Positions 14,267 through 58,500 of a stretch of 64,000 nt of DNA are shown piece by piece (position 1 is the first letter of the stretch; each line of letters opens with the position of its first letter). The notes beneath the pieces were generated by a model. It worked only from the letters and a program-made list of their open reading frames with translations, was not told the DNA's origin and ran no database searches. The stretch covers positions 22,948 to 86,947 of the forward strand of contig JAIORK010000036.1 of the NCBI GenBank assembly GCA_021108215.1. Direction: 5' to 3'. Made by a program: the position numbers and the translations under genes. This DNA comes from a bacterium (GTDB taxonomy: Bacteria > Oederibacteriota > JAAXVQ01 > JAUVAV01).

Positions 14267-16906
14267 TTATTTAACAATGCTAACTTTGATAGTCCCCTTC
14301 ACGCTCCCTTGCACAATAACACGCGCCATATAGACACCGGGCGCAACATCTTTGCAGTCCCAGTCCAGGCTTTGGCCCGGACCCTCCGGTAAATTTTCCT
14401 GCAGTACCGCCACGCGCTCACCGATCAAATTATAGAGCATAATCTCAACCTGGGCAGCTTGCTCCAAATGGAGCACAAAGCGCATCTCTGATTTGGCTGG
14501 ATTGGGAAATGCCAACGCCGGCCGGCCGCCCAGGTCGACATTGAGCAAAGGATTGTCCGGTGTCACGGTTGCGGTTGGCGTTACGGTCAAAGTGGGTGAG
14601 ACGGTTTGGGTCAATGTAATAGTTCCGGTCAGGGTAATGGTGGGTGTCACGGTTGCGGTAAAAGTGATGGTCCGGGTAGGTGTCGCGGTTGCGGTCGGCG
14701 GTCCAATCACAACCACATCCGTTGCAAACGAGGATGTATTGTTACTGCTGTCCGTGGCCAAAGCGGAAACCGTCTCTCCGCCAACCAGACCGGACGGCGT
14801 GAGGCTCCAGTTGCCCGAGCCATCGGCCGTGGTCCTGCCGACCAGGGAAATGCTCCCTCCCGGATTTCCGCCCGCTTCAGCCAGGAAAACCTCGATGTAA
14901 TCATTATTCCCCGCGGTTCCGGAAATCAGGGTGCTGGAGGCAGCCGTAATCACAGGCGGTATTTTATCCGTATTGCCGCCCGCGGACAACAGAATCGCAT
15001 CATGGCCTATCGCTGTGATGGTATTGGCAAACAAACCGTTTTGAATTGCATTGGAATTTAAAATACTAATTCCATAATTCATGCCGGTAAAAATATTTCC
15101 CGAACCGGTATGCTGAATACCAAAAAAATTGCCCTGCCCGTTCGAAATACGGACACCGGTACCCATGGTCAATCCAGTGGCCGTGCCGTCTGGCATGCAA
15201 TTAAGCCAGTTCTGGCATATGGTATTGTTGTCCGCTCCGTCATACAGTTCAAATCCGTAGTTTAAACAGTAAATATAGTTGCGGTCTTCAGGCAGCAGTC
15301 CGCCAATCACGTTATCGATCGCGACGCGAAGCTGGAAACCGTTAAAATTCTCGATTACGCTGCTACGGTCAAGACTCAACCCGATATCATTTCCCAGTAT
15401 ATAATTGCCAACCGCAAGTTCCAGAAAAACCGCATTCAAACTATTGCCGGAAATGATATTGCGGTAGATGGGATCCGGACCGCCGATATAATTGTTGGTG
15501 GCATTCGCGTAATATAAGCGGAGGCCGTGATAATTGGGAATCGCGGCATTTCCGGCCAGATTAAGGCCGATAATGTTTCCGATCACAGTATTTCCCTGGC
15601 AGTCGTAAATGAGCACACCCGCGTTTCCCGTACCACTGCTGCCTGAAATCAAATTGCCCCGCATCTGGCCGGCTGACAAATTGGGTCCGCCGACCAGATT
15701 ATTATCACCGGTTATCCATACCCCGCACTGGTCGCTGATGGCTGCCGCGTCACCGGCCCAGTTGGTGCCGATCAAATTGCCGCTTACCGTATTGCCCGAT
15801 CCTTGCAGCCGGATATTGTATTGGCTGCCGGATATCAGATTGCGTTCCTTATATGCTGCATTCAAATGACCGCCGATCGCGAAAGAAAACCCATACAGAT
15901 CAAGACCGTAACTGGAATTATTGGTAATCTGGTTGTTCTGGATAATATAATGATGCGAGGTTGTGGCAGTGTTATAAATGCCGCGGTCATTGGCCGCAAT
16001 GGTATTGCCATAACCGTCTACAGGCAAACCGATCCAGTTGTTATTGGAATAATTGCCGATACCAATCCCGGCAAAGGAGTGGCCCAAAGGTGTGGCCATA
16101 TCACTGCCCAGACCGATCACATTGCCGCAGACACTGTTGCCCGAGGTTGCCGCATAGGTGAAACGCAGACCCGAGTTGCTGTTGCCGGATATCAGGTTGC
16201 CCTCATTGGCATACCAGCTCCCACCGATCATATTATTTTCACATTGATCACCAAACTCCACGCCAACTAAATTAGGCCGGGCCAAAAGCCCGGAGCTGTC
16301 GGTCCCAATATAATTATTCTGGATTTTCATACTGCTGCAGTGACCAACATATATGCCATAATGGGTATTACTGGATATAATGTTGCGGTCACTGATATTG
16401 GGTGTGCCGATCACTGCATTCGTACTGCCCAAAATGTAAAGACCGTCGCGATTTGGCCGGCTTACATCTGTCCAGTCAAGACCGATCCTGCATCCGGTAA
16501 TTGAAATATTGTCGGCATTAACGGAGCGGATTGCCTGATACGCATCCACCAACGCTACATTTCTGAATTGCGTATTATCACTGGTTATGGCAATCAAAAA
16601 CATATACGTATTACTCTCCTGCGCCGGATAGTACCCGATCACCACGTCATTACTCTCCCCATCAATAATTAATTCATTATTAATCCATATTGCGCTGAAA
16701 ACCGTGATGGAATTGGAATTGCCGCTGGCGCCCGGCCCAAAGGTAATGGTATCACCTGCCGTGGCATCCAGAACCGCCTGGCGCAACGTCCCCGCACCGC
16801 TGTCCTCGCGGCTGGTGACTTGAATGGTAGCAGCTTGCGCAAGTGTCGCCATACCGCATAAAATAATAACTGCAATATACCTGACCCCTAAATATCTTTT
16901 CACCAT
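14267..16906 (-). CDS. Secreted right-handed parallel beta-helix repeat protein with Thr-rich linker and T9SS (Por) C-terminal sorting domain
   Basis: Signal peptide (GMATLAQA). Dozens of N.I.GN/NxIxxN beta-helix rungs. TATATPTRTITFTATVTPTITLTGTITL linker. C-terminal FPNPAKSEMRFVL...YNLIGERVAVL...GVYMARV matches the Por secretion tail (T9SS CTD) pattern. Confidence 0.7.
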   Translation of the reverse strand: MVKRYLGVRYIAVIILCGMATLAQAATIQVTSREDSGAGTLRQAVLDATAGDTITFGPGASGNSNSITVFSAIWINNELIIDGESNDVVIGYYPAQESNTYMFLIAITSDNTQFRNVALVDAYQAIRSVNADNISITGCRIGLDWTDVSRPNRDGLYILGSTNAVIGTPNISDRNIISSNTHYGIYVGHCSSMKIQNNYIGTDSSGLLARPNLVGVEFGDQCENNMIGGSWYANEGNLISGNSNSGLRFTYAATSGNSVCGNVIGLGSDMATPLGHSFAGIGIGNYSNNNWIGLPVDGYGNTIAANDRGIYNTATTSHHYIIQNNQITNNSSYGLDLYGFSFAIGGHLNAAYKERNLISGSQYNIRLQGSGNTVSGNLIGTNWAGDAAAISDQCGVWITGDNNLVGGPNLSAGQMRGNLISGSSGTGNAGVLIYDCQGNTVIGNIIGLNLAGNAAIPNYHGLRLYYANATNNYIGGPDPIYRNIISGNSLNAVFLELAVGNYILGNDIGLSLDRSSVIENFNGFQLRVAIDNVIGGLLPEDRNYIYCLNYGFELYDGADNNTICQNWLNCMPDGTATGLTMGTGVRISNGQGNFFGIQHTGSGNIFTGMNYGISILNSNAIQNGLFANTITAIGHDAILLSAGGNTDKIPPVITAASSTLISGTAGNNDYIEVFLAEAGGNPGGSISLVGRTTADGSGNWSLTPSGLVGGETVSALATDSSNNTSSFATDVVVIGPPTATATPTRTITFTATVTPTITLTGTITLTQTVSPTLTVTPTATVTPDNPLLNVDLGGRPALAFPNPAKSEMRFVLHLEQAAQVEIMLYNLIGERVAVLQENLPEGPGQSLDWDCKDVAPGVYMARVIVQGSVKGTIKVSIVK

Positions 16907-17597: not shown

Positions 17598-18320
17598 CTA
17601 ATAGCACTCATAGTACGGTGGCTTTTTGGGTGTTGGATATATTTTAGCCGAATAGTGTATGTTTTTTATCTTGTCACGAAATTTGTTTTGCAAAATAATA
17701 TTATTTCTAATTGCTGAAATATACTTATCCAGCGCTATTACTAAATCAACCTTTAAGGCATTAATTGATATCGGCAACCAATATCCAGCATAGTTATTCA
17801 AATGCGTTATTTCTCCGGCAGAATGAACTTGCACTATTTGGAAGTGTTTAACATCAAGCCTTTTTTCAAATATTATTTTGCCATCATTATCTGCTATTTG
17901 GAAATTGTGGCTGTAACTATTTCGTTCACCGTCTTCATCAGAAAATACCAACCACTTTAATATCGCTTTTTTACTTTCGAGATCTATTAATAGATTTTGT
18001 GGATGAAATCTATGACACAATCCATGTCGATACATGTAATAAAACCATTTAACTTCCTGGTCTTTGTAAATACTTGTGTCAAAATAATTACGAATAAATC
18101 CTAACTCAACATCCTCACCATCTTTCCCGAAGGGTCTTTGACCATGAAGATATTCACTCAATTCCAGCACATAACTAAAAAACATCAATGGAATAGTAAA
18201 CTCTCCTATCCCTGCTTTTAGAAGAGCACCCATTTCTAAGAGGATCGAGTTTTTATAATCTTTATCCAAATATTCGATTATCTGGTCACTGCTAACATTT
18301 TTAAATAATTTCCAAGACAT
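17598..18320 (-). CDS. Hypothetical protein (240 aa), second gene of the uncharacterised two-gene island operon
   Basis: Intact AT-rich ORF 32 nt downstream of the 777-aa gene on the same strand; no recognisable catalytic motifs. Confidence 0.5.
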   Translation of the reverse strand: MSWKLFKNVSSDQIIEYLDKDYKNSILLEMGALLKAGIGEFTIPLMFFSYVLELSEYLHGQRPFGKDGEDVELGFIRNYFDTSIYKDQEVKWFYYMYRHGLCHRFHPQNLLIDLESKKAILKWLVFSDEDGERNSYSHNFQIADNDGKIIFEKRLDVKHFQIVQVHSAGEITHLNNYAGYWLPISINALKVDLVIALDKYISAIRNNIILQNKFRDKIKNIHYSAKIYPTPKKPPYYECY

Positions 18321-18352
18321 ACCTCATCTCCATTTTAGACCACTTATTGATT

Positions 18353-20686
18353 TTATTTAATCGGATGTTTAGAAAGAATTTGTCGTGCTAATTCTTCTCC
18401 GTCATTTGGGCCTGGAAATCCACCTCTTTCCCGTAATCGTTCTTCAAGTTGTTTTTGTCTAAGTAAAATATGTTTTTGTACATTTTTCCATTGTTCTTCT
18501 GTGAAAACCTTCGGTTTTGTTTTAATTTCTTCGTCAACCTTGTTTGCCATATGTGTATTGTTTTTTGCACGCATTACTAATTGAATAGCATAAAAATGTG
18601 CATATATATCACCAATTGCGTAATCATCAGGATTTTTAGAAATTTCGCAATATGATTCCAGGATTGAGCGTATATTTGAAATACATAAGAGTAATACATC
18701 TTGCCACCACTCTCGGGTATAAAATAAAAGGCCTATGTACACCATAGAATCACATGCAATATCAGTCCATTCTTTAAATATGCTCTTCTTTCTATCAAAA
18801 GCAACCCAGTAAAATGACAAAATCCACGTGAATTTATCAACTAATTCTTTCACATCATTTTGGTTAGATCGTAGTGGATTATCTAATATCTGACACACAA
18901 CTTTAGCAATATGCTTAATTAGCTCATTAATCTCCCAAATAAGAAAACTATCTCCAAACTCATTTTTTTCTGCAACATTGCGCAAGTGCCGTGCAATGAT
19001 GTCTGTCATGTCTATTAATTCGTAATATGGATTTGTCGCATCTCGTTCAGGATCTACTTTCGGAAATATAGTTGCAGCCATAGCGAATAAATTCCCGAGT
19101 GAAGTTTGTTCGACAAGACTATATGCCTTTGTAAACGGATGATTCATTGATAGTCTTCCTTGAAGAGTTTCACTAATTATTGCAAAGGGCGCTAAATTTC
19201 CAAGTTTTTGAAAAACTTGGCCAAGTACTTCTTTGAAGTAATAATCTTTATTCCGAAGCATATGGTCAAGGATGATAAAATACTGTTTAATAACTTCTTC
19301 TGCTAATACAGGATTGCGGTTAATATAGAAGTACTGAGCAATTTCTGATATTCCATTTATAACTGGCAAGTGAATGTCTGAGTCATCAACATCCTTCGGA
19401 GTACATTTAATAATTCCAGAAAGCATGCCGCTCGTCTGAAACGGCACCTCATCAAGCCCTTTTGTTTGGGCAATCCTCACGCATGACAACATGTAGTTAA
19501 TTGGTTTCATAGACAATGGTGCAGTGTTCGGCCGGTATTTTCTTGCTCCTAAATTTGCTGTGTGGATAGTAATTTTCTTGTATGCTTCAGAAACACTTAA
19601 AGCTGCGGATTCATCATTTTGTGATATAGCAATACGGCTAATTTCATTTAACATTTCATAGGAACAGCCTGTAACTGCTTCTACATCAGATTGGGAAGTT
19701 AACAGCAATGTATCTGGGCAGGGCAAAATTAGTAAATTTAGCTTTCTTGCAGATAAATAATACATAGTCAAATGAGCAATCGCATACACAGCCGATTTCG
19801 TTAATAGTTTCTCATTTCGAGAAATAGCTTTTACTGCGATCTCAGATAAATCATTAATCCAACTATTGATAGTTTGGGGATAGCCGAACACTTGAGGATA
19901 ATAAATCGTTTCTATATCCTCAATTACCACTCCCTGCTTTTTTTCTTCCGGGAGTAATTTATAATGAAGTCTTGCTGATCGATTAACTGTCTTTTTTATA
20001 CGATCAATTGTTCTCATTGCTTGCTTGAGAGCAAGATTTGTTGAATAAGTTGGATCTAACAGCTTGCATATATGACGATGATACAAGCGTAGCAGATCAA
20101 GACTAAATCCCAGAGTTAATATAGCAACAGCTAATTTCAAGTTTTCTGAAACTCCAGCGAATCCACCCGCAGAAAAAGCAAAGCACGCTATACACAATAT
20201 CGCAAGAGCTACAAACGATGCATTTGTAATTAAGTCTCTCCGATAAAGACGGACAATTGAAGATGACCAAGCTTCTGCTGCACGTTGTATTGGTATAATT
20301 GATAGGGTTAATACAAGTGCCAGAATTGTTCCGTACGTGGCACCAAGTTGAATGAGCATTTTATCTATTGATTGCGTTGTGTTTAATGCTGTTCGCAAAG
20401 GCGGATAACCCAGAATAAATGATGCTATTATAAGGCCAATAATACCTATCATAATCTTGCTTGTTTTCAAAAGCAACCCACGACTAAACGAAGTAATATA
20501 AAACCATAAACGAACAACTTTTATTGTCAAATACGTTTTTATTCGCGTTATTATAGTTTTCAATCCATCACGTAGCGACATAATCATTCGTTTGAAATAT
20601 TTCACTAGTTTTGGCCACCATAGTATTACGTTTGTTGACCATAAATTGCGAATTTTAAAGTATGATTTGTTTTTATTTTGGTTCAT
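18353..20686 (-). CDS. Hypothetical large polytopic membrane protein (777 aa; N-terminal ~4-5 TM helices plus ~550-aa alpha-helical soluble domain)
   Basis: Hydrophobic segments (IGIIGLIIASFILGY, YGTILALVLTLSIIPI, FVALAILCIACFAFSAGGF, LAVAILTLGFSL) followed by a long helical domain. No P-loop, nuclease or protease motifs recognised. AT-rich codon usage distinct from the backbone. Confidence 0.55.
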   Translation of the reverse strand: MNQNKNKSYFKIRNLWSTNVILWWPKLVKYFKRMIMSLRDGLKTIITRIKTYLTIKVVRLWFYITSFSRGLLLKTSKIMIGIIGLIIASFILGYPPLRTALNTTQSIDKMLIQLGATYGTILALVLTLSIIPIQRAAEAWSSSIVRLYRRDLITNASFVALAILCIACFAFSAGGFAGVSENLKLAVAILTLGFSLDLLRLYHRHICKLLDPTYSTNLALKQAMRTIDRIKKTVNRSARLHYKLLPEEKKQGVVIEDIETIYYPQVFGYPQTINSWINDLSEIAVKAISRNEKLLTKSAVYAIAHLTMYYLSARKLNLLILPCPDTLLLTSQSDVEAVTGCSYEMLNEISRIAISQNDESAALSVSEAYKKITIHTANLGARKYRPNTAPLSMKPINYMLSCVRIAQTKGLDEVPFQTSGMLSGIIKCTPKDVDDSDIHLPVINGISEIAQYFYINRNPVLAEEVIKQYFIILDHMLRNKDYYFKEVLGQVFQKLGNLAPFAIISETLQGRLSMNHPFTKAYSLVEQTSLGNLFAMAATIFPKVDPERDATNPYYELIDMTDIIARHLRNVAEKNEFGDSFLIWEINELIKHIAKVVCQILDNPLRSNQNDVKELVDKFTWILSFYWVAFDRKKSIFKEWTDIACDSMVYIGLLFYTREWWQDVLLLCISNIRSILESYCEISKNPDDYAIGDIYAHFYAIQLVMRAKNNTHMANKVDEEIKTKPKVFTEEQWKNVQKHILLRQKQLEERLRERGGFPGPNDGEELARQILSKHPIK

Positions 20687-20788
20687 ATAATCCTCTGAAT
20701 CTATTTTCCTGTCAGCGAAATATAGGGCATTATCGTCAACTTTTAGCGGAATAGCAATTCAAAATATATTACACCGTAAATAGCACCG

Positions 20789-20983
20789 TTATTTTATACA
20801 TGACTGTTTCTTTATGGCTTTTACTACCAAATCACTGATTTCTTGCATTATCTCTGGATCGTATTGGATAAAATCAAGTCTACCGCTGCTTTTATCTTGG
20901 TTTTCTTTTACTACTTCTCGATCCATACGTTCAGTTATGATTTGGAAGACCTTTATATCACCCCGTGCCGCTTGTTTGATCAT
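20789..20983 (-). CDS. Small hypothetical protein (64 aa from ATG; open frame continues ~45 codons upstream without an ATG)
   Basis: In-frame upstream region (back to a TGA at ~21120) encodes a GNPCGAKCGVSHW Cys-rich motif but has no canonical start; possibly a degraded gene or a non-AUG start. Confidence 0.25.
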   Translation of the reverse strand: MIKQAARGDIKVFQIITERMDREVVKENQDKSSGRLDFIQYDPEIMQEISDLVVKAIKKQSCIK

Positions 20984-21119: not shown

Positions 21120-21147
21120 ACAAAAAAGAGCCTCCCTTTCGGGAGGC
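21120..21147 (-). terminator. Terminator hairpin after the XRE regulator gene
   Basis: AAGAGCCTCCC-TTTC-GGGAGGCTCTT perfect stem followed on the minus strand by TTTTTTG. Confidence 0.5.
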
Positions 21148-21149
21148 TC

Positions 21150-21359
21150 TTAAAGATTCATTAGGTCCTTTAATTTAATCCCCAGCCCATGAGCTATCTT
21201 AGCTAGAGTGGTGAATTGCGGGTCCACAAGACCTTTTTCGATCTTACTTAGGTTGCCTTTGGACATGCCGTTTTCATAAGCTAGGTGTTCCAGGGTAATC
21301 CCCTTCTCCTTCCTTAGCTTATGTATCCTCATGCCCAGTTTTTCGGTTAATTGGCTCAT
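21150..21359 (-). CDS. XRE-family helix-turn-helix transcriptional regulator (Cro/CI-like)
   Basis: 69 aa with HTH (ITLEHLAYENGMSKGNLSKIEKG). Confidence 0.7.
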   Translation of the reverse strand: MSQLTEKLGMRIHKLRKEKGITLEHLAYENGMSKGNLSKIEKGLVDPQFTTLAKIAHGLGIKLKDLMNL

Positions 21360-21647: not shown

Positions 21648-22214
21648 CTATTTACTCTGCATTGCTAATAGCTCCGCCTTTTTTCCCTCCATCGGGGCTG
21701 AAATATGTATTCGTGATTTTTCTTTTTTACGCTTCTGGCCTCCCTGGTTTAATTTCGAGAGGTTTTCAGATATAAATCTATCAATATTCTCTTTAGCTTC
21801 CACATGAAAGCGAGCCACTCCGTTTTTAATATCCACATCTTTACCAGCCATGTGTATCAATTGATCAAGATACATTTTTACTTTAAATGCATGATATTTA
21901 ATCAAATCAACAATTTTTACCGAAGGCTGGCGAAAACCAATTTCCAAGTGAAGCCCAAGGACGCTTGCATAATTCAATAGATCACCAACAGCGATATCTT
22001 TGTCATAAGAGGATTCGATTTTGGATATTTTCCCCTGGGAACAACCAACTTTTTTCGCCAGTTTGGTCTGCGTGAGTTGGTGTTTGCAACGCAACATGAG
22101 CAGGAATTTGGAAATCATCCGGTTTTCGATTTCATACGCTACGCTTTTCTTGAATTCCTCATCCGTTGAAAGCCCTTCCATCATTTTCATAACATTTTCA
22201 TATTTTTTCGCCAT
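21648..22214 (-). CDS. HigA-like antitoxin / XRE-family HTH protein
   Basis: HTH (LTQTKLAKKVGCSQGKISKIES) in a 188-aa protein; start overlaps the stop of the upstream toxin-like gene (toxin-first HigBA arrangement). Confidence 0.6.
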   Translation of the reverse strand: MAKKYENVMKMMEGLSTDEEFKKSVAYEIENRMISKFLLMLRCKHQLTQTKLAKKVGCSQGKISKIESSYDKDIAVGDLLNYASVLGLHLEIGFRQPSVKIVDLIKYHAFKVKMYLDQLIHMAGKDVDIKNGVARFHVEAKENIDRFISENLSKLNQGGQKRKKEKSRIHISAPMEGKKAELLAMQSK

Positions 22215-22585
22215 TATTGTCCCCCCTGTTTCATACCCTTTACCTTTTTCTTGTATTCCTCAATATCCCTACTCTGGGACCTCTTATCCCCTATTCCTAA
22301 AAGCACAACCCTCTTTTCCTTTACGTCGGAATAGATATAAAGCCGTGTTTCCTGGAGCTTCTTTCTTATTCCTCCACATCTTTGGTCAATCGCTTTGATG
22401 CCCATGGGTTCCGGATAGACAAACCCCACCTGGACCAACGAAGGCGACCCACACTCACACAAAGTCCTAAAATACGTGTCCAGGTTGTTCAAAACGCACT
22501 TTAATTCATCTTTGTGCTTTTTTTGATAGTGCTTGTGGTCCCTCTCGAAGGATTGCGTCGGTTGGAGATGCCATGGTTCCATCAT
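22214..22585 (-). CDS. RelE/HigB-like type II toxin (addiction-module killer family)
   Basis: C-terminal RLYIYSDVKEKRVVLLGIGDKRSQSRDIE resembles the HigB/RelE-like killer signature (...Y..vvLL.ggdKs.Q..DI); 123 aa, coupled to the downstream XRE antitoxin. Confidence 0.5.
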   Translation of the reverse strand: MMEPWHLQPTQSFERDHKHYQKKHKDELKCVLNNLDTYFRTLCECGSPSLVQVGFVYPEPMGIKAIDQRCGGIRKKLQETRLYIYSDVKEKRVVLLGIGDKRSQSRDIEEYKKKVKGMKQGGQ

Positions 22586-23034: not shown

Positions 23035-23403
23035 CTATTTTCCTGCTTCCTTTTTATCCAAACCCCTCACCAGTCCGTTGATCATTTTGCAAATTTCATT
23101 AAGATTTTCGTTCAAGTCTAGACAGTTATCTGAATTTATTAATTGTTTGCGTTTACATACTTCAATAATCGGTATACATTCCTGAGCAGATCCTCTAGCA
23201 ATCCAAAAGAACTGTTTGCGTTCTTTTGGATGCCATCTACCGTTTCCTTCTGCCAAATTAGCCGATATGGATAGCGCTGCCCGATTGAGCTGATCAATAA
23301 GGTAATAGTTGCCTTTCGGAAATGTGTCGGTAAGTTTAGATGTCTTTTCTGCAACATCGACCGCTTTTTGGTAAACTTCCAATTTCTCAAACATGAAAGA
23401 CAT
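23035..23403 (-). CDS. Four-helix-bundle protein (23S rRNA intervening-sequence protein family)
   Basis: LEVYQKAVDVAEKTSKLTDTFPKGNYYLIDQLNRAALSISANLAEGNGR matches the family signature (vYq.a..l......FPk.e...l..Ql.RAa.Si..NiAEG.gR). Confidence 0.7.
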   Translation of the reverse strand: MSFMFEKLEVYQKAVDVAEKTSKLTDTFPKGNYYLIDQLNRAALSISANLAEGNGRWHPKERKQFFWIARGSAQECIPIIEVCKRKQLINSDNCLDLNENLNEICKMINGLVRGLDKKEAGK

Positions 23404-23602: not shown

Positions 23603-23677
23603 TGGTAGCGCTACGGGGAATCGAACCCCGGCTTGATGACTGAGAATCATCCGTCCTAGCCGCTAGACGATAGCGCC
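23603..23677 (-). tRNA. tRNA-Glu (anticodon CUC)
   Basis: Minus strand GGCGCTATCGTCTAGCGGCTAGGACGGATGATTCTCAGTCATCAAGCCGGGGTTCGATTCCCCGTAGCGCTACCA folds as a cloverleaf. Anticodon stem GATGA/TCATC, loop TTCTCAG (CTC), T-loop TTCGATT, encoded CCA. Confidence 0.8.
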
Positions 23678-24133
23678 ATGAGCGAAGCGAATAGCTCTGC
23701 TGTTCTGCTGCTCTGATTTCAATAAATATGTACAAGCCAATTCCAACAACTTAAAAATATGATCAGCGGACCAGCCGATAGCAGACCGCTGGTTCGCTTT
23801 TTCCTGCTGTTCTGCTGCTCTGATGCTCACCTGCTCTGCAATTTCGCTTTTTCGAAATTGCGAACCCCGGCTTGATGACTGAGAATCATCCGTCCTAGCC
23901 GCTAGACGATAGCGCCATGAGCGAAGCGAATAGCTCTGCTGTTCTGCTGCTCTGATTTCAATAAATATGTACAAGCCAATTCCAACAACTTAAAAATATG
24001 ATCAGCGGACCAGCCGATAGCAGACCGCTGGTTCGCTTTTTCCTGCTGTTCTGCTGCTCTGATGCTCACCTGCTCTGCAATTTCGCTTTTTCGAAATTGC
24101 GAACCCCGGCTTGATGACTGAGAATCATCCGTC
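23622..24133. repeat. Tandem direct repeat, 239-bp unit x ~2.1, each unit starting with the 5' ~55 nt of tRNA-Glu (truncated tRNA copies)
   Basis: Units start at 23622, 23861 and 24100 with CGAACCCCGGCTTGATGACTGAGAATCATCCGTC... and are near-identical through ...CAATTTCGCTTTTTCGAAATTG. Copies 2 and 3 lack the tRNA 3' acceptor/T-arm strand. Confidence 0.85.
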
Positions 24134-24151
24134 GTCTTGCGCAGCAAGACA

Positions 24152-24235
24152 GCTCTGCTGTTCTGCTGTTCTGCTGTTCTGCTGTTCTGCTGTTCTGCTG
24201 TTCTGCTGTTCCGCTGTTCTGATGCTCTGCTGTTC
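24152..24235. repeat. Octanucleotide microsatellite (CTGTTCTG)n, ~10 units with minor variants
   Basis: CTGCTGTTCTGCTGTTCTGCTGTTCTG... directly read in sequence between the tandem repeats and tRNA-Gln. Confidence 0.8.
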
Positions 24236-24277
24236 TGATGTTCTGCTGCTCTGCCACTCTTTCTCACTACGAAAGAG

Positions 24278-47725: not shown

Positions 47726-48004
47726 TTATCCTTCAACCTTATGGGTCAGGACAACAATCTTGATCGCGCTTTTCCGTTCCCCGTCCAATTCGAGATGCAT
47801 GAATTCCGGACGAAAGGTCAATTCAATTTTATCATCCGTAAGGTAAGACCGGGAAATGGTAATCGCTTTTACTGCCTGATTCACACTTTGAGGACCCATC
47901 GCAACAACTTCAATATCCTTGCCTTCGCGGATATTATTAGCAATCGCACCAGCTACAGTGGCAGGGTTGCTTTTCCCGGCAACTTTGAGAGTGAGCATTG
48001 GCAT
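47726..48004 (-). CDS. spoVS: SpoVS family protein
   Basis: 92 aa MPMLTLKVAGKSNPATVAGAIANNIREGKDIEVVAMGPQSVNQAVKAITISR closely matches the SpoVS family. Confidence 0.75.
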   Translation of the reverse strand: MPMLTLKVAGKSNPATVAGAIANNIREGKDIEVVAMGPQSVNQAVKAITISRSYLTDDKIELTFRPEFMHLELDGERKSAIKIVVLTHKVEG

Positions 48005-48194
48005 AGTCGTAAGTCTCCTTTTGCGACGTTATTGAACCGGGACCTAACCGGCGCAACCCTAAATAGGGGCTGATTATTATTTTTAAAGTATAGCATATTC
48101 ATGCCTGTATTTCAATTTGACTTCTTTTATTGACGCTGGACTTTTCTGCCCGGAAAACCGGTGCCTGGCACCAAATCCCCGAAGCTTTTATGAA

Positions 48195-48740
48195 TTACTT
48201 TTCTATTTGTACTATATATGGTGGGTCAAGTTTTAAGAGTGCATATGTTTTACGAAGAGTTTTTTCTCCTCCAGATCGAATCAGATATTCACCTCGCGTC
48301 GGGATTGTGTCCTTTCTCCAAGATCCATTTTTATAAAGCCATTCCACCTTGATTCCTTTCAGTTCTTGCAAAACAGGATGTATCACCTCAACAACTTTAA
48401 ACGCTGTTGCCCGTTTTTTTTTGCCAAAAGGGTGAGGGATTTCTACTGTTGATGGGATTGATTGCCATTCCTGATCATCAACACTCTTGTATTGAGTTGC
48501 CTTTGCTTGGACACCTCCGGGATCTTTTGCTTCCGGACTATCTGAACAGAAAGCATAGATGGGTTGGGGTTGTGGATTCGCATTAATGTAGTTAATCCAC
48601 TGTCTAATAAATTCTTCTTTTCTATCTTGAAACGACCATAGCGTCCATTCGTTTGCTTCAATTTCCTTTTCTTTACGCCGAAGAATGTCCTCACGGGTTT
48701 CTCCAGCGTGAACTCCTAAACAGTGCCAAAATCCTAGCAT
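48195..48740 (-). CDS. Hypothetical protein (181 aa), third gene of a TA-like operon
   Basis: Start overlaps the upstream toxin gene by 7 nt; AT-rich; no recognisable motifs. Confidence 0.4.
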   Translation of the reverse strand: MLGFWHCLGVHAGETREDILRRKEKEIEANEWTLWSFQDRKEEFIRQWINYINANPQPQPIYAFCSDSPEAKDPGGVQAKATQYKSVDDQEWQSIPSTVEIPHPFGKKKRATAFKVVEVIHPVLQELKGIKVEWLYKNGSWRKDTIPTRGEYLIRSGGEKTLRKTYALLKLDPPYIVQIEK

Positions 48741-49099
48741 ATTTTCCCAATCCTCCCCCGATCCTCTTTCTCCTTATCCCCTTTAAAATAAATTTCTATC
48801 AACGCCACTTTATTTTCCGCCGCATAATACGCATAGATCACCCTGATCCCGGAATTCGCGCCCCTGCCTTTCAGAGCCTTGCAGGCGAATTTGCGGGCTT
48901 TGTAGATTTTCGGATTTTCAATGCCTAAATCAGGAATGGATACGATGCCCTGGTTATCCTTATCCAGCTTATGATAGAGCTGAAGCTGAACTTTGATAAA
49001 TACATCCAAATCATCTTCCGGGGTTTTGAATCGTTTCCTCAGCTTTTTTAAATCCTTCTCAAATTCCGGCCAGCGTCTGACCTCACTGAATATTTTCAT
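48734..49099 (-). CDS. RelE/ParE-superfamily toxin (phage Gp49-like / HigB-like)
   Basis: C-terminal GANSGIRVIYAYYAAENKVALIEIYFKGDKEKEDRG pattern (G.yRviY......i.ll..f.K...k) typical of Gp49/RelE-type toxins; overlaps the upstream antitoxin stop by 17 nt. Confidence 0.55.
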   Translation of the reverse strand: MKIFSEVRRWPEFEKDLKKLRKRFKTPEDDLDVFIKVQLQLYHKLDKDNQGIVSIPDLGIENPKIYKARKFACKALKGRGANSGIRVIYAYYAAENKVALIEIYFKGDKEKEDRGRIGKIC

Positions 49100-49901
49100 C
49101 GCTTCGTCTCACTGAATAGGGTGCTGTCCGGTAAAACACGGATTCATATTCAATATTTTTACCCTCCTCGGAGGTCATCCAGGGAACATCAGCATGTGAA
49201 TAATCTTCCATTTGCCTGGCATTCTTATCCGACAGCCGGGCCAAAACATCGTCAATTACTTCCTTTTCATTCGCTGAAAGAACACTTAAATCCGGTTCCT
49301 TTAGCGGCAAATATTTTGTTTGCGGATAGTCAAAGTATTGGCTTTTCACTTTCTCGATTTCATTATTCTTGATCATGTTATCCACAATCACTTTAAATTC
49401 CCGCGGTGTAGGGCCGTGATGATTCTTAATATACGTGGCCCCGATAAGCTGTTCCTCAAACCTTTCATAATAATCGAAGTCCATAAAATACAGGAGTTTA
49501 TAGATAACGCTTTCCCCGATATTGGGTTTTGATCCCACTTTGCCCAGTATATACAATAAAATCTGCTTGAATTTTTTCAGATTCTTCTGCGGCACGTTTA
49601 TGCGAATACCGGGTTTGGTCTCTTTTTCTTCTTTAGTCATTTCCAAAATCACCTGCGGCTCTTTGGAAATATCCATAAGGCTCTCCACCGAGACCCCGAA
49701 TATTTGGGAAATTTTCTTCAACTCTTTTATTGAGACAGCTCTGGTGCCGTTTTCCATTTGAGAAATCGTGGGACGCACCACTTTCAGTAAGTTCGCCAAT
49801 GCCTGCTGACTCATTTCCTGAGATTCCCTCAACAATTTGACATGTTTGCCTATTTTTTTATCAAATTCGCCCACGGTGAACACCCCCTTTTCTATACTCA
49901 C
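49083..49901 (-). CDS. Antitoxin-like protein: N-terminal XRE HTH fused to Panacea (DUF4065/SocA-like) domain
   Basis: HTH (MSQQALANLLKVVRPTISQMENG) then IYKLLYFMDFDYYERFEEQLIGATYIKNHHGPTP, matching the Panacea-domain core (KLLYF.D......G.p......A...GPv). Confidence 0.55.
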   Translation of the reverse strand: MSIEKGVFTVGEFDKKIGKHVKLLRESQEMSQQALANLLKVVRPTISQMENGTRAVSIKELKKISQIFGVSVESLMDISKEPQVILEMTKEEKETKPGIRINVPQKNLKKFKQILLYILGKVGSKPNIGESVIYKLLYFMDFDYYERFEEQLIGATYIKNHHGPTPREFKVIVDNMIKNNEIEKVKSQYFDYPQTKYLPLKEPDLSVLSANEKEVIDDVLARLSDKNARQMEDYSHADVPWMTSEEGKNIEYESVFYRTAPYSVRRSDENIQ

Positions 49902-50184
49902 TCTACGTCATGTAATTATTCCTGTCAACGCAAAGTTAGCATTTATTACTTTTGTCCCTGGGCTATTTATTAGAGGATGGCTTCATCTTGGTCATGCTAT
50001 CTGGTCAATCCTGAAAAAGTCAAAAATAAAAAAAAGTGGCTGGCACCACTTTCATTTTCTTCAAGACCCTCGGCATACTACTTTTTCACAGTGCATCCTG
50101 TTTGAGCTTCCCGAAGGGGGCGAGTTATGCACCAGAAAAAGTAGTATGCCGAGGGTCTCCTAAAAAAGAACCGACACCTTGGCT

Positions 50185-54852: not shown

Positions 54853-55176
54853 TTAGTCTACCAACATTTCATTGATCACCGCTTTAATTTGCAGACGGGT
54901 TTTGGCACTTAGCTTTCCAATCTTTTTAACCAATCGGCGTTTGTCAACGGTCCGGATTTGATCAAGAACAACCCATCCTTTTTTATTCTGAAATGTCAGA
55001 CCAACTCTGGTGGGATATTTCTTTGATTGTGTGGTCATTGGCGCAATAATAACAGTTGAAATATACCGATTCATTTCATCAGGAGAAATGACAACACAGG
55101 GTCTGGTTTTCTTGATCTCATGACCCATTGCAGGATCCAGACAAATAAGATAAATATCATATTGAGTGATCACCAC
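54853..55176 (-). CDS. mazF: MazF/PemK family endoribonuclease toxin
   Basis: 107 aa; GDIYLICLDPAMGHEIKKTRPCVVISPDEMN matches the PemK/MazF core (GDI..v.fdP..G.E..K.RPalVvS). Confidence 0.75.
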   Translation of the reverse strand: MVITQYDIYLICLDPAMGHEIKKTRPCVVISPDEMNRYISTVIIAPMTTQSKKYPTRVGLTFQNKKGWVVLDQIRTVDKRRLVKKIGKLSAKTRLQIKAVINEMLVD

Positions 55177-55418
55177 TTCCAGTCACCTTTATCCAGATCA
55201 AGATAATCATCAATAAGCAGGGTATCTTGTTTATTATTGTTCATTGCCAAAAACTTTGCATCCCAGTCTTTCCGAATATCTTTTTTGACTGGTTTTAAAA
55301 CGATACGGTCACTGGTTATTTCGGCATCAACTTGCTCGCCGATATGACATTGCCGCAAAATAGCTTTTGGCAATCGAACACCTCTGGAATTTCCAATTTG
55401 TATAATATCAATCCGCAT
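55170..55418 (-). CDS. mazE: MazE/AbrB-type antitoxin (SpoVT/AbrB swapped-hairpin domain)
   Basis: IQIGNSRGVRLPKAIL motif. Start reassigned to the ATG after GGGAGGTG (the listed ORF has a 41-aa extension); overlaps the mazF start. Confidence 0.65.
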   Translation of the reverse strand: MRIDIIQIGNSRGVRLPKAILRQCHIGEQVDAEITSDRIVLKPVKKDIRKDWDAKFLAMNNNKQDTLLIDDYLDLDKGDWKW

Positions 55419-55548
55419 TGTATTCACCTCCCTTACTTCAAATGTAATTATATTGTAATTACATTTGTTTGTCAAGCATTCATGCCTATCATCGCTATAG
55501 CGCCGGCACGAAGGACGAAAATGCAAGTCGGCTATATGCATATCTGTC

Positions 55549-58500
55549 TCACCGACTGTATTTTTGCAAAATATTGCGAAACTCCATAAATCCTTTGCTT
55601 AATAAATAATTACAAAACTCTTCTGCTCTCTTTTTACTCGCTTGATGATTCTTACTGAAAACACTCTCGAGTATCGCCATAATCTCATCCTGATGAAACG
55701 CAATGAAATTTATTTCATTTTCCGCTAAAGCTACTAATATTTTAACAACTTCAGTTGGATAAGTTTCAACCATTGTTTTAAGTTGTTCCATAATTGGTGG
55801 AATTGCTTCGATATGCTTGGTTTTTTCCAGCACAAATAATAATTGATCAATCGCCCACTGCGAGTCACACTTCCCGGATCCAAACCAATGCCCAAACGCC
55901 GACATTTCATTCAAAAAGATTTCCGGACTCGTTGATAAAAAAAGCATTTTGCATCGCTTTTCCCACATTTTTTTTATGCGCTGCATTTCCATAGCTGATA
56001 AATTTTCCGTGCTCCCTAATATATCAAAACCGATCATTTGCATTGCTGTCCCTCTTAATTCATCCGGCGCTCTTTTCCAAAAATTTATAAAAATATCCGA
56101 TTCTAATTCCAGTTTTCCGCGAATATAAAACAACATCAGATGCCAAGCCAATCGCTTATCTTTTTCTTCCGCAACATCCTCAATTTCGTTGACTGCCCGA
56201 GCATACTCTGTTTTCAATATTTCAAAAACATTATCATAGGGCTGACACAACAAAATATATGCCTTCCAGGCCACAGCCCAATATTCACGTTCCCTCTCAT
56301 CTTCCGGGAATATCCGGGTCCGTGCTTTGGCTGACCATTCCGGTTTTACTTTTGCCAGCCAAGGAAACCAACGCCCGTATACCGAATGAATAGCCAAGCT
56401 GGAATCTTGCGTATGATCAAGATGTTTATCCAAAATCTTTTCAATTTCAGGCATCATTTCTTCTCTTTTATCCTCTTCAAAATCATCTGTTTGACTCTGG
56501 ATTTTATTTCTGTAAATCCACCACATATAATTCATAACTGCATGCATGGCTTTTCCGCGGGTAGAATTGATTGAACGGGAATATGGTTCCATGTCATGTG
56601 TGTTTTCATATTCACTTGTCGGATCCGAATCTTCGGTTAATGGCTCTAAAACAGTCCAAACGCTTTTCCGTAGCTTTAAGGGGATTAAATTTTTACGCAT
56701 ACCTTCAACCAGGCAGTCTGCTATCTCCCCCCTGGCTTGGCCCCTATCGTCCGCATTTTCCTCTTTTATTTCGCGTGACTGTCGCATCCACTGACCAAGT
56801 TCCAGCATAGACGCCCACTCCAGCTTTGTATTGGTATTACGGATCACTTCTTTAAATCCAAATAATATCCAAAATAAATAATTTGAAGTATATGGACTGG
56901 TAAGCCGGGTAAATTGCCGTGCCTCGACAGAATACAATTCAGGCCTGGCTTGCACCAAAGACGACAGCATTTGCGCCAATCCTTCCGCAGAAACGTCTCT
57001 GACTTCTGCTGATGGTTTCCAAGCGTTTAAAAATTCAACCAGCTTCTCAATTGGCAAGGCGGCTAACTCGTCCAGGGTTTTTGGGCTGGATTCCCATCCC
57101 CCCTCCACTACAACTCCGGTGTTTCTCTTTTTCTCCGCTACACCATATTCTTGAACTAATTTCGTATAATAAGGCTGCCATGCCGCTGGCAAAGCTTGGC
57201 CAAACCTGGCCAGACAATCCCTTTGCCAGTGCCGGCGAACTTGCTCAGCCTCATCTTTCCCGGGTTTTCTGTACCTCTTGTCAAAATCCGGCCCGTCTTC
57301 AACCCATTTTAAGATCATCGCCTGTTTATCCTGCGGTAAAAATCCAAAACCCTTTTCCAGCAGCGGTCCATATTCATCCCAGCATTCACCACTTGCAAAT
57401 AACGCCTTGTCTGATAAATATTTATCTGTCAGTTCCGGCGCTGACCCGGGACAAAGGCTTAATAAATGAAGCGCTATCCGCTTGAAAAGCATCCATGGTT
57501 TCTCGCTTGAAATTTTTACCAAAACATCAATACCTATAGTCGCATCCAATTGCGTGCCTGTCTTTAATATCAAATCGATTAGAATATTTCTAAGCTCGTA
57601 CATCTCATATTGCATTGGTTTTTCAATCTCCGGGCGCCAAAAAAAAGAATAATCATTATTATTTTCCGGTTCCTCATCCTTGGCTTGTGAATATCTCAAT
57701 GCCATATCCAACATCTCGCATAGCCATCGGAACACAGGAACACCGGTTGACTTTGCAAGTTCCGGAATAATCTTCTCCGTTATCTCTTTATACCGGGAAA
57801 TTTCTACTCTTGTTTTCGGATGCGGGCCATCCCAATAGCGCTCTGCGTTTTCTTTGCTCTTCTGCCAGCGAGGATCCGGGAGTATTACCAGCATTTTTTT
57901 CGCCAGCCCGAAAGCTTCCTCCGCTTTTCCTGCCAAAGTATAATACAGGACCAGTTCAGCCAAATGCTTGTCAAGCGGATAAAACAAATATTCATTTACC
58001 ATCCACTTGGCTGCTTTATCTATTAAACTCATAGCTATATCAATCGGCAGATTCAGCGTTGCTTTAACCAAACCATCAATAACATAGACATTTTGTGTGT
58101 CAGGGATGATTAAAATAATATCCGCAACTGCTTGGGGCGCTATTTTGGCCATCCGCACTAAATAACCGGATTCCGCCCAAAATGGAAACGTTATGGAACC
58201 ATCTTCATTTTGTAGCAGCTCCGGGGGACTTCGAAAAACTGATGTATCTTTTAGCCGTGCAAGCCATTTTGGATTAGAGCATCTTTCAAAAAAGTATTTG
58301 CGTATAAAATAGACATCAGGAATTTCTTTGTAGAGTTTTTCCGCATCCTTAGAAGTCGGATTATCTTTTTCCAGTAATTTATCCAGTTCGGCAATCAATC
58401 CCGAGCTATGATTGCGCAACGCATGTAAAATCCGCTTCAAATAAACATCCATGTCCGACAAGTTTTTTTCCAGATCACTTGGAGTCATTCGCGGAGCATC

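What the first reader, a model, noticed from the sequence alone, without database searches (positions are those of the whole stretch)
17598..20686. Uncharacterised two-gene operon in an AT-rich tRNA-linked island: candidate new defense/abortive-infection module
A 777-aa protein is followed 32 nt later by a 240-aa protein on the same strand. The large protein has ~4-5 N-terminal TM helices and a ~550-aa helical cytoplasmic domain.

- Neither protein shows any motif of a known enzyme family (no P-loop, HNH/PD-(D/E)xK, SIR2/TIR or NTase signatures).
- The pair sits in the AT-rich accessory segment with XRE regulators, a HigBA-like pair and a tRNA attachment-site remnant, the genomic context in which anti-phage systems cluster.
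- The membrane-anchored large subunit plus small partner recalls effector/sensor logic, but the sequences do not match families I can name.
Basis: partly seen in the sequence, partly recalled or inferred. Interest (0 to 1): 0.8.

Follow-up and report, generated by a model that had tools for sequence, protein, structure and literature searches.

The report
Two unrelated defence-island genes, side by side
The two adjacent genes are real and uncharacterised, but they are not a conserved two-gene system: each belongs to its own family that turns up alone next to restriction enzymes and other anti-phage genes in distant bacteria, so they are two separate candidate defence genes that sit together only in this lineage.

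Summary
The anatomy is confirmed. A (777 aa, 18353-20686, minus strand) is followed after 32 nt by B (240 aa, 17598-18320), in a 33-36% GC segment beside tRNA-Glu and tRNA-Gln.

A has four transmembrane helices distantly related to DUF2254, then a ~570-aa cytoplasmic alpha-solenoid with no enzyme fold. It has about 100 full-length homologues across several phyla.

B belongs to a sparse, uncatalogued family of more than 120 members.

The pairing is not conserved:
- No B-like gene occurs in about 17 independent A neighbourhoods.
- No A-like gene occurs in 84 B-family loci.
- The pair recurs only in one ~86%-identical relative.

Each family on its own is associated with defence or mobile DNA. A is coupled to Type I and Type III R-M operons, lies next to Shedu, NACHT, TIR and GmrSD genes, and is carried as ICE cargo. 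B follows Type ISP, Type III and Schlafen-helicase genes. Neither family matches a PADLOC model or occurs in phage collections.

Verdict: two independent candidate defence genes, probably co-transcribed here. Both mechanisms are inferred: membrane action for A, RNase activity for B. Interest is moderate.

The parts
18353..20686 (-). Gene A, 777 aa: basic N-terminal helix, 4 TM helices, and a cytoplasmic alpha-solenoid. NCBI K8S19_08125, annotated as a hypothetical protein.
   Evidence: ORF. 104 homologues at 32-56% identity. AlphaFold model with pLDDT 86 and pTM 0.78. AGAGGA ribosome-binding site before the ATG.
20087..20458 (-). A residues ~77-200: four TM helices. This is the most conserved part of the family, with the block GATYGTILALVLTLSIIPIQRA...WS.SI.RLYRRD and then D197..R200..YH203xH205xC207.
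   Evidence: Hydropathy and per-block conservation of 0.66-0.86. Invariant columns.
19865..20383 (-). A residues 102-274: stretch matching the N-terminal half of Pfam DUF2254 (profile positions 40-209 of 368).
   Evidence: PF10011 E=0.0037, 16.6 bits, below the gathering score of 28.8. PF10011 is precomputed on about 40 of 104 homologues.
18356..20059 (-). A residues ~210-777: all-alpha solenoid (HEAT/ARM/TOG-like) with no recognisable catalytic fold. Predicted cytoplasmic by the positive-inside rule.
18321..18352 (-). 32-nt A-B spacer with GGAG 7 nt upstream of B's ATG and no terminator. Co-transcription is likely.
17598..18320 (-). Gene B, 240 aa: N-terminal helical bundle, beta-sheet insert (aa 109-185), then two C-terminal helices. 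NCBI K8S19_08120, annotated as a hypothetical protein.
   Evidence: ORF. Model pLDDT 70 for the best model, with the other four poor. 49 family representatives. 122 metagenome relatives.
17994..18035 (-). B residues 96-109, MYRHGLCHRFHPQN: the family signature [hydrophobic]-R-[H/N]-x3-H-x3-P, a HEPN-type Rx4H motif.
   Evidence: R98, H103 and P107 are invariant in 49/49. H99 is H in 45 and N in 4. The motif is present in 132 of 133 family sequences. It lies in the last turn of helix 87-102 and the start of the following loop.
20687..20757 (-). Promoter-like hexamer pairs directly upstream of A: TTGCTA-17-GATAAT and CTGACA-17-GATTAT.
   Evidence: Consensus scan only. The number of hits in the region is not above the shuffled expectation.
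20789..20983 (-). 64-aa ORF upstream of A with no family match. It is not found next to any other A homologue and may not be a gene.
21126..21151 (-). Strong intrinsic terminator (11-bp stem, 7 GC pairs, T-run) after the 69-aa XRE gene. It separates that gene from the orf64-A-B unit.
21150..21359 (-). 69-aa XRE-family HTH regulator.
   Evidence: HTH_19 at 4e-11 and HTH_3 at 3e-10.
21648..22585 (-). 123-aa weak RelE/ParE/HigB-like gene (22214-22585) overlapping by 1 nt a 188-aa XRE protein (21648-22214). This is a TA-like pair.
   Evidence: TIGR02683 E=1e-3, phrog_3445 toxin E=6e-3, HTH_3 E=2e-7.
23603..23677 (-). tRNA-Glu(CTC), at the upstream edge of the AT-rich segment.
   Evidence: ARAGORN and Rfam.

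Best explanation
The locus is a small, horizontally acquired, AT-rich islet next to tRNA-Glu. It holds several independent accessory genes: a TA-like pair, XRE regulators, gene A and gene B. A and B are not two halves of a conserved system. They belong to two separately distributed families, each associated with defence islands, and they sit together, probably co-transcribed, only in this narrow lineage.

Shown:
- The anatomy of both genes.
- The lack of pair conservation in both directions.
- Defence and mobile-element neighbourhoods for each family.
- The absence of both families from phage collections and from PADLOC.

Inferred for A: it is a stand-alone membrane-acting sensor-effector. The variable cytoplasmic alpha-solenoid would recognise an infection cue, such as a phage protein or the inactivation of the adjacent R-M enzyme. 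The highly conserved DUF2254-type 4-TM module would then change state and compromise the membrane, giving abortive infection. A's start is translationally coupled to Type III mod and Type I hsdS genes in other bacteria. That fits a back-up role for restriction, like PrrC/RloC but acting through the membrane.

Inferred for B: it founds a new HEPN-like family, and its R98/H103 pair would form a metal-independent RNase site. Most members stand alone, often directly behind restriction genes. The C-terminal beta/alpha part would therefore have to keep the nuclease silent until triggered.
For: Pair not conserved:
- tblastn and a B-profile HMM find no B in 15 genome loci carrying A relatives.
- A relatives sampled on long contigs are solo or have other partners.
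- An A-profile HMM finds nothing in 84 B-family loci.
- Neither family has a conserved neighbour.
- The pair recurs only in L001, at 86%/85% protein identity and 89% DNA identity. That similarity ends ~21 nt after B's stop.

A and defence or mobile DNA:
- L010 reads hsdR-hsdM-hsdS then A after 7 nt. In L005/L011 the Type III mod gene overlaps A's start, followed by a PDC-M32A-like gene.
- NACHT plus DUF3800; Shedu SduA; CAP12/TIR; Eco57I methylase plus NsnA/GmrSD; PDC-S31 plus IS elements; RHS; ICE cargo.
- Patchy distribution over Beta- and Gammaproteobacteria, Acidobacteriota, Spirochaetota and Alphaproteobacteria, and low GC in the window.

B as HEPN-like:
- R-[H/N]-x3-H in 132 of 133 sequences.
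- The motif lies at the end of a helix and the start of a loop. There is an extra helix between H2 and H3, and an acidic residue in helix 2 in 42 of 49 members.
- These are the features listed for HEPN in PMC3710099, which also documents frequent HEPN association with R-M.
- B-family genes follow a Type ISP enzyme by 9 nt, Type III mod-Shedu-res, and a Schlafen-type helicase by 26 nt.
- R-M, Shedu and recombinase families top the pooled neighbour list.
Against: - Nothing here is experimental. The defence role rests on guilt by association.
- 6 of 17 A contexts are purely housekeeping.
- Only a minority of B loci (roughly 10-15%, many on short contigs) show recognisable defence genes.
- No background control set was run, so enrichment is semi-quantitative.
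- B's model is only moderate (pLDDT 70, with four of five models poor).
- In B's own clade the helix-2 Asp is replaced by Leu, with Glu one position later.
- The A-B block is retained across ~11% DNA divergence with a tight 32-36 nt junction. A second lineage (L010) also has a different HEPN-motif gene behind A. A functional link therefore cannot be excluded.
- The function of the DUF2254 TM module is unknown.
Confidence: 0.55

Rival explanations
1. A and B form a genuine two-component system. A is the membrane-anchored sensor or scaffold and B is its HEPN-type effector. The system is either very young and lineage-specific, or is built on a conserved A core with interchangeable small HEPN partners.
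For: - Same strand, 32-nt gap, RBS, no terminator.
- The block is retained in L001 with the breakpoint right after B.
- A, B and orf64 share the lowest GC of the island.
- In L010, A is followed after 52 nt by an unrelated 243-aa protein with RNDYAH and a weak HEPN_Apea hit.
Against: - Only 2 of ~17 independent A contexts have a HEPN-motif gene downstream, which is compatible with chance because HEPN genes are common beside R-M.
- Most A homologues are solo, often with convergent or divergent neighbours.
- None of 84 B-family loci has an A-like gene or any conserved partner.
- L005's downstream gene is a PDC-M32A-like protein, not a HEPN.
Confidence: 0.2
2. Neither gene is a defence gene. A is an accessory membrane protein with another role, such as envelope or stress sensing, metal or redox handling through its conserved His/Cys motif, or mobile-element maintenance or exclusion. 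B is an unrelated small enzyme. Both merely accumulate in variable regions where defence genes also accumulate.
For: - 6 of 17 A contexts are housekeeping only.
- Most B neighbours are not recognisable defence genes.
- No PADLOC model matches either protein.
- The conserved D..R..YHxHxC motif and an invariant Cys in TM3 could bind a metal.
- DUF2254 proteins are widespread and of unknown function.
Against: - A is translationally coupled to hsdS and mod genes in independent R-M operons.
- It lies immediately next to Shedu, NACHT, TIR, GmrSD and PDC candidates in lineages sharing <70% identity.
- B sits 9-26 nt behind restriction or helicase genes.
- Patchy phylogenetic spread and low GC.
Confidence: 0.2
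3. B is a DinB/YfiT-like metal-dependent enzyme, not an RNase. H99-x3-H103 would act as metal ligands with H159, D192 or the helix-2 acidic residue.
For: - Near-invariant H159 and D192 lie outside the Rx4H motif.
- From my own knowledge, not tested here: DinB-fold enzymes carry a His ... HxxxH metal triad on the last helix.
Against: - H99 is replaced by Asn in 4 of 49 members, as expected for the polar position of a HEPN motif but awkward for a metal ligand.
- The invariant Arg has no role in the DinB triad.
- No DinB Pfam hit in any of the 49 members.
Confidence: 0.15
4. B is a toxin and A is its membrane-bound immunity or antitoxin partner, forming an addiction pair.
For: The probable operon organisation, and the neighbouring TA-like pair in the same islet shows this kind of cargo is present.
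Against: - B-family genes occur alone in more than 80 loci with no conserved partner, so they cannot need a dedicated antitoxin.
- A occurs alone in most loci.
- A 777-aa membrane protein would be an unusual antitoxin.
Confidence: 0.05

Closest known systems
Pfam DUF2254 (PF10011), predicted membrane proteins of unknown function
   Same: A's residues 102-274 (TM2-TM4 plus the juxtamembrane helix) align to profile positions 40-209. About 40 of 104 homologues carry a precomputed PF10011 hit, and JGI names one of them 'predicted membrane protein DUF2254'.
   Different: A itself scores 16.6 bits, below the gathering score of 28.8. The C-terminal half of the DUF2254 profile (positions 210-368) is not matched. 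In its place A has a ~570-aa alpha-solenoid, making it twice the usual length. No function is known for DUF2254; the only literature found concerns knot topology.
HEPN superfamily RNases found beside R-M systems (PrrC, RloC, Abi-type HEPN, ApeA)
   Same: The B family has R-[H/N]-x3-H with invariant R and H, placed at the end of a helix and the start of a loop in a helical bundle. It also has an insert helix between H2 and H3 and an acidic residue in helix 2 of most members. It recurs directly behind restriction genes.
   Different: There is no significant HMM, profile or fold match to any HEPN family. A ~75-residue beta-sheet insert separates the motif from the last helices. There is no ABC-ATPase or other regulatory domain of the kind PrrC and RloC have. 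RNase activity is untested.
Single-protein or membrane-effector abortive-infection systems (RexB-type channels, TM effectors of CBASS/Pycsar/retrons, Kiwa KwaA), and solenoid-sensor immune proteins (Avs/NLR-like STAND)
   Same: By analogy only, from my own knowledge: a multi-pass membrane module combined with a large repeat domain of the kind that serves as a ligand or protein sensor. It also shares location in defence islands and on an ICE.
   Different: No sequence or fold relation to any of these was detected. A matches no PADLOC model. It has no NTPase, no cyclic-nucleotide-binding domain and no partner gene. Pore or channel activity is purely inferred.
PADLOC candidate systems (PDC-M32, PDC-S31, PDC-S35) and Shedu, NACHT and GmrSD genes
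   Same: These are A's immediate neighbours in different lineages, so A occupies the same genomic niche.
   Different: They are neighbours, not homologues. Neither A nor B matches any of the 5027 PADLOC models.

Membership tests
DUF2254 (PF10011) | Whole-protein score at or above Pfam's gathering score (28.8 bits). | tested here: not met
   A scores 16.6 bits, E=0.0037.
DUF2254 (PF10011) | Homologues of the protein are recognised as family members (transitive membership). | tested here: inconclusive
   About 40 of 104 homologues carry a precomputed PF10011 hit. The hit is flagged 'weak' for P0026 and 'faint' for P0004, and is unmarked for P0029.
DUF2254 (PF10011) | Match over the full profile, meaning the TM half and the C-terminal half. 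| tested here: not met
   Only profile positions 40-209 of 368 are matched. The C-terminal part is replaced by an alpha-solenoid.
HEPN superfamily (gene B) | Conserved Rx4-6H motif with a polar residue (N, D or H) right after R (PMC3710099). | tested here: met
   R98 and H103 are invariant. Position 99 is H in 45 and N in 4 of 49 members. The motif is present in 132 of 133 sequences.
HEPN superfamily (gene B) | Motif at the end of core helix 3 and the start of the loop to helix 4, in a four-helix bundle that often has an insert between helices 2 and 3. | tested here: inconclusive
   In the model R98 and H99 close helix 87-102 and H103 opens the loop. Helix 65-79 fits the insert. However, the model is moderate (pLDDT 70), and a beta-sheet (aa 109-185) intervenes before the next helix.
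HEPN superfamily (gene B) | Conserved acidic residue in helix 2, near the motif. | tested here: inconclusive
   It is D or E in 42 of 49 family members at the column of B's L52. B's own clade has Leu there, with Glu53 adjacent.
HEPN superfamily (gene B) | Significant profile or structural similarity to an established HEPN family. | tested here: not met
HEPN superfamily (gene B) | Metal-independent RNase activity that depends on the R and H. | not testable with these tools
   Needs biochemistry.
Conserved two-gene defence system (A+B as a module) | Co-occurrence of homologues of both genes, in conserved order, across diverged genomes. | tested here: not met
   No A locus has B and no B locus has A, apart from one ~86%-identical relative.
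Defence-island gene (guilt by association) | Homologues recurrently lie next to known defence genes in unrelated genomes. | tested here: met
   For A, about 11 of 17 independent contexts qualify. For B the result is weaker: R-M, Shedu and recombinases are the top neighbours but appear in a minority of 61 loci. No background control was run.
Defence-island gene (guilt by association) | Protection against phage when expressed. | not testable with these tools
   Needs an experiment.
tRNA-integrated genomic island | Direct repeat of the tRNA 3' end at the distal boundary, plus an integrase. | tested here: not met
   No repeat longer than 11 nt was found and there is no integrase ORF. The partial tRNA-Glu copies lie in a tandem duplication upstream of the tRNA.

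The most novel reading that the evidence does not exclude
The A family (a DUF2254-type four-helix membrane module fused to a large alpha-solenoid) is a new, widespread single-gene anti-phage system. It senses infection, or the failure of the restriction system it is coupled to, and kills through the membrane. In some lineages it recruits interchangeable small HEPN nucleases, and B would be the founder of a previously unrecognised HEPN family.
Probability: 0.25. Interest if true: 0.7.

Novelty: new variant of a known kind. Interest (0 to 1): 0.5.

Why it matters
If either gene protects against phage, it would add an uncatalogued family to the defence repertoire. Neither has a Pfam, NCBIfam, PHROG or PADLOC model beyond a marginal DUF2254 relation.

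A would give the large orphan DUF2254 membrane family its first functional handle. It would also be an example of a membrane-acting guard wired directly to Type I and Type III R-M operons.

B would extend the HEPN superfamily with a form that carries a beta-sheet insert and works without a dedicated partner.

There is also a methodological point. Adjacency and a tight intergenic gap in a single genome suggested an 'operon system' that comparative genomics does not support.

Tried and rejected
- Profile libraries: Pfam, NCBIfam, PHROGs and PADLOC on A, B and neighbours gave nothing significant for A or B. Pfam on all 49 B-family members also gave nothing.
- PDB sequence-profile searches with both family alignments were empty.
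- Fold searches:
  - Foldseek against the PDB on B found nothing.
  - The AFDB library was unavailable.
- B as a partner of A elsewhere: rejected by tblastn and HMM searches.
- Hidden homology between B and the other genes found downstream of A: hhalign against L010's 243-aa protein gave probability 0.2. L005's 309-aa gene is PDC-M32A-like.
- Phage or plasmid origin: there were no relatives in IMG/VR or INPHARED for either gene. Only one distant A hit (25% identity) was found, on an Ensifer megaplasmid with no annotation. B had no plasmid hit.
- Pattern scan with the full B-family alignment failed because it was too divergent. A 13-sequence subset worked.
- tRNA att-site repeat at the island edge: none found.
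- The 64-aa ORF as a conserved leader gene: not found next to any other A homologue.
- An alternative, shorter start for A at Met35/37 was rejected. The annotated ATG has an AGAGGA RBS and the internal ATGs do not.
- Literature: searches on DUF2254, PF10011, PDC-M32, and TM plus HEAT-repeat anti-phage proteins found no description of either family.
Full report
**1. Observation**

A lies at 18353-20686 on the minus strand (777 aa), and B at 17598-18320 on the minus strand (240 aa), 32 nt apart. The spacer has GGAG 7 nt before B's ATG, and no terminator-like hairpin was found in it. A strong terminator at 21151-21126 closes the upstream XRE gene, so orf64-A-B is a plausible transcription unit. 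A's annotated ATG has an AGAGGA ribosome-binding site.

Both are real genes. The identical pair is present in ENA, Logan and NCBI assemblies, annotated as hypothetical proteins K8S19_08125 and K8S19_08120 of an unclassified 'bacterium'. The segment is AT-rich: A 35.3%, B 32.6% and orf64 35.4% GC, against 45.9% for the window. It lies just downstream of tRNA-Glu(CTC) and tRNA-Gln(CTG).

Two sub-claims fail:
- There is no attachment-site repeat at the distal edge of the segment and no integrase. The partial tRNA-Glu copies belong to a perfect 239-nt tandem duplication between the two tRNAs.
- B does carry a recognisable catalytic-type motif (section 3).

**2. Gene A**

Hydropathy gives four TM segments, at about aa 77-97, 110-133, 155-175 and 182-200, after a basic and poorly conserved N-terminal helix. 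Positive charges cluster in the N-terminus, in the 134-154 loop and after TM4. By the positive-inside rule (inference) this gives an N-in/C-in topology with a cytoplasmic C-terminal domain.

The only library hit is a sub-threshold DUF2254 match over TM2-TM4 (16.6 bits against a cut-off of 28.8). About 40 of the 104 homologues carry PF10011. The TM block is the best-conserved part of the family, with mean column identity 0.74-0.86 against about 0.5-0.7 in the solenoid. It includes the invariant juxtamembrane motif D197..R200..YH203xH205xC207. No functional literature on DUF2254 was found.

**3. Gene B**

The word-indexed search found only two relatives. An exhaustive profile search found 49 cluster representatives at E<=1e-3, and a metagenome scan found 122 relatives. 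The family is about 200-240 aa long and very divergent, with mean column identity of 20%. R98, H103 and P107 are invariant, and H99, G100, W123, H159 and D192 are nearly so.

The motif [hydrophobic]-R-[H/N]-x3-H-x3-P is present in 132 of 133 sequences, with H in 128 and N in 4 at the position after R. The HEPN reference analysis (PMC3710099) defines the following features:
- an Rx4-6H motif whose next residue is 'mostly N, D or H';
- frequent inserts between helices 2 and 3;
- an acidic residue in helix 2;
- frequent association with R-M systems.

In B's model (pLDDT 70, moderate) R98 and H99 close helix 87-102 and H103 opens the loop. Helix 65-79 fits the insert. The helix-2 column is Asp or Glu in 42 of 49 members, though it is Leu in B's own clade, with Glu53 adjacent.

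**4. Is A+B a system?**

No. The evidence runs in both directions:
- A genome scan with the A-family alignment returned 15 loci from Beta- and Gammaproteobacteria, Acidobacteriota, Spirochaetota, an Alphaproteobacterium and a Streptomycetaceae MAG. tblastn and a B-profile HMM find no B in any of them.
- Look-ups of seven further A homologues show solo genes or other neighbours. This includes P0004, at 53% identity, which has convergent housekeeping neighbours.
- Conversely, an A-profile HMM finds nothing among the ORFs of 84 B-family loci, and the B family has no conserved neighbour at all.
- The pair recurs only in L001. There A's C-terminal part is 86% and B 85% identical, and DNA identity is 89% over 1539 nt. 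The similarity ends ~21 nt after B's stop, where L001 carries a different 220-aa gene.
- The 51% B relative (L002) is preceded by a gene end that does not resemble A-family C-termini, but only 21 residues are visible.

So within this narrow clade A-B behaves as one block, but it is not a conserved module.

**5. Contexts**

I grouped A homologues at below ~70% mutual identity so that lineages count once. L005 and L019 are the same contig, L011 belongs with them, and L012, L013 and L026 form one group.

| Locus group | Neighbouring genes |
|---|---|
| L005/L011 | Type III res, Bro-N, mod; the mod stop overlaps A's start; a PDC-M32A-like gene (4e-50) lies downstream |
| L010 | Type I hsdR-hsdM-hsdS, then A after 7 nt, then a 243-aa protein with RNDYAH and a weak HEPN_Apea hit |
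| L012/13/26 | DUF3800, A, NACHT |
| L014 | Shedu SduA |
| L031 | CAP12/TIR |
| L030 | Eco57I-type methylase, N6_N4 methylase, NsnA/PD-T4-2-like GmrSD |
| L027 | PDC-S31 (DUF2971) plus transposases |
| L008 | RHS toxin |
| L015 | Methylase |
| L020-25 | Cargo of an ICE |
| Window | TA-like pair, XRE regulators, B |

Six contexts are housekeeping only: L006, L007/28/29, L009, L016, L018 and P0004. That makes about 11 of 17, well above what I would expect for a random gene, but I ran no control set.

For B, the examples are:
- a Type ISP enzyme followed by the B-like gene after 9 nt (L063);
- Type III mod, Shedu, res, then the B-like gene (L046);
- a Schlafen-type helicase, then the B-like gene after 26 nt (L062/77);
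- a Type IIG methylase (L097);
- large serine recombinases in three loci.

Pooling 145 neighbours from 61 non-redundant B loci, the most recurrent families are N6_Mtase, Eco57I, RE_endonuc, ResIII, HsdS, SduA, Resolvase and RadC. Each occurs in only 2-3 proteins. The signal is real but modest.

Neither family occurs in IMG/VR or INPHARED. Plasmids yield only one distant A hit. Neither protein matches any PADLOC model.

**6. Mechanism (inferred)**

A has no catalytic domain. Its most conserved part is the 4-TM module, and its large solenoid is the more variable part. That is the layout expected of a sensor (solenoid) fused to an effector (membrane module). It is translationally coupled to R-M methylase and specificity genes in two unrelated R-M types.

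My preferred reading is a stand-alone abortive-infection-type protein that compromises the membrane when the solenoid detects a phage cue or failure of restriction. For B I favour a self-restrained HEPN-like RNase. In this window the two are probably co-expressed, which could make them act in parallel. A direct A-B partnership remains possible (rival 1, 0.2), encouraged by the second A+HEPN-motif case in L010.

**7. Comparison, novelty and score**

A is at most a divergent offshoot of DUF2254 and shares only the TM half. B meets the motif criteria of HEPN but fails the similarity criteria. Neither is in the defence catalogues available here, and no paper describing them was found.

The kinds of thing they appear to be are already known: a membrane-acting single-gene defence candidate, and a HEPN-type nuclease beside R-M. 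I therefore rate the locus as a new variant of a known kind.

What remains is two decent, testable defence-gene candidates among the many such candidates in defence islands. Interest: 0.5.

Noticed in passing
window 23622-24273: A perfect 239-nt tandem duplication (23622-23860 is identical to 23861-24099). Each unit begins with the 5' 56 nt of tRNA-Glu. A third partial copy lies at 24100-24133, followed by an 8-nt (TCTGCTGT)n microsatellite up to tRNA-Gln. It may be a real duplication or an assembly artefact. It is not an island-flanking att site.
   Followed up: partly
window 21648-22585 (-): A 123-aa weak RelE/ParE/HigB-like ORF overlaps by 1 nt a 188-aa XRE-HTH protein, forming a probable type II toxin-antitoxin pair. 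The toxin hits are weak (TIGR02683 E=1e-3, phrog_3445 E=6e-3).
   Followed up: partly
window 23035-23403 (-): A 122-aa '23S rRNA intervening sequence protein', a four-helix-bundle protein distantly similar to DGR Avd, lies between the islet and tRNA-Glu (PF05635 E=2e-29).
   Followed up: no
L005 and L019 (whole loci): These two contigs are 100% identical over 11,880 nt but are deposited in MAGs of different classes (Polaromonas and Pseudohongiellaceae). This is either a binning artefact or a very recent transfer of a Type III R-M + A + PDC-M32A-like block.
   Followed up: partly
L010:10245-10976 (+): The gene directly downstream of the A homologue, inside a Type I R-M operon, is an unrelated 243-aa protein. 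It has a textbook HEPN motif (RNDYAH at aa 211) and a weak HEPN_Apea hit, but no PADLOC match.
   Followed up: partly
window 20067-20098 (-) (A residues 197-207) and residue C165: The A family has an invariant juxtamembrane motif D..R..YHxHxC after TM4 and an invariant Cys in TM3. Together they could form a metal-binding or redox-sensing site.
   Followed up: no
L001:1594-2256 (+): In the only relative that shares the A-B pair, a 220-aa gene follows B. It has no match in the window, in any fetched locus, or in PADLOC. The cargo next to the A-B block is therefore itself variable.
   Followed up: partly
window 14267-16906 (-): An 879-aa protein with a signal-peptide-like N-terminus, a faint NosD/beta-helix repeat signal and a Thr/Pro-rich linker lies just outside the AT-rich segment. 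It is probably a secreted or surface protein.
   Followed up: no
window 48000-50000 and 55000-60000: Further low-GC stretches (37-42% GC) may be other acquired segments. They were not examined.
   Followed up: no
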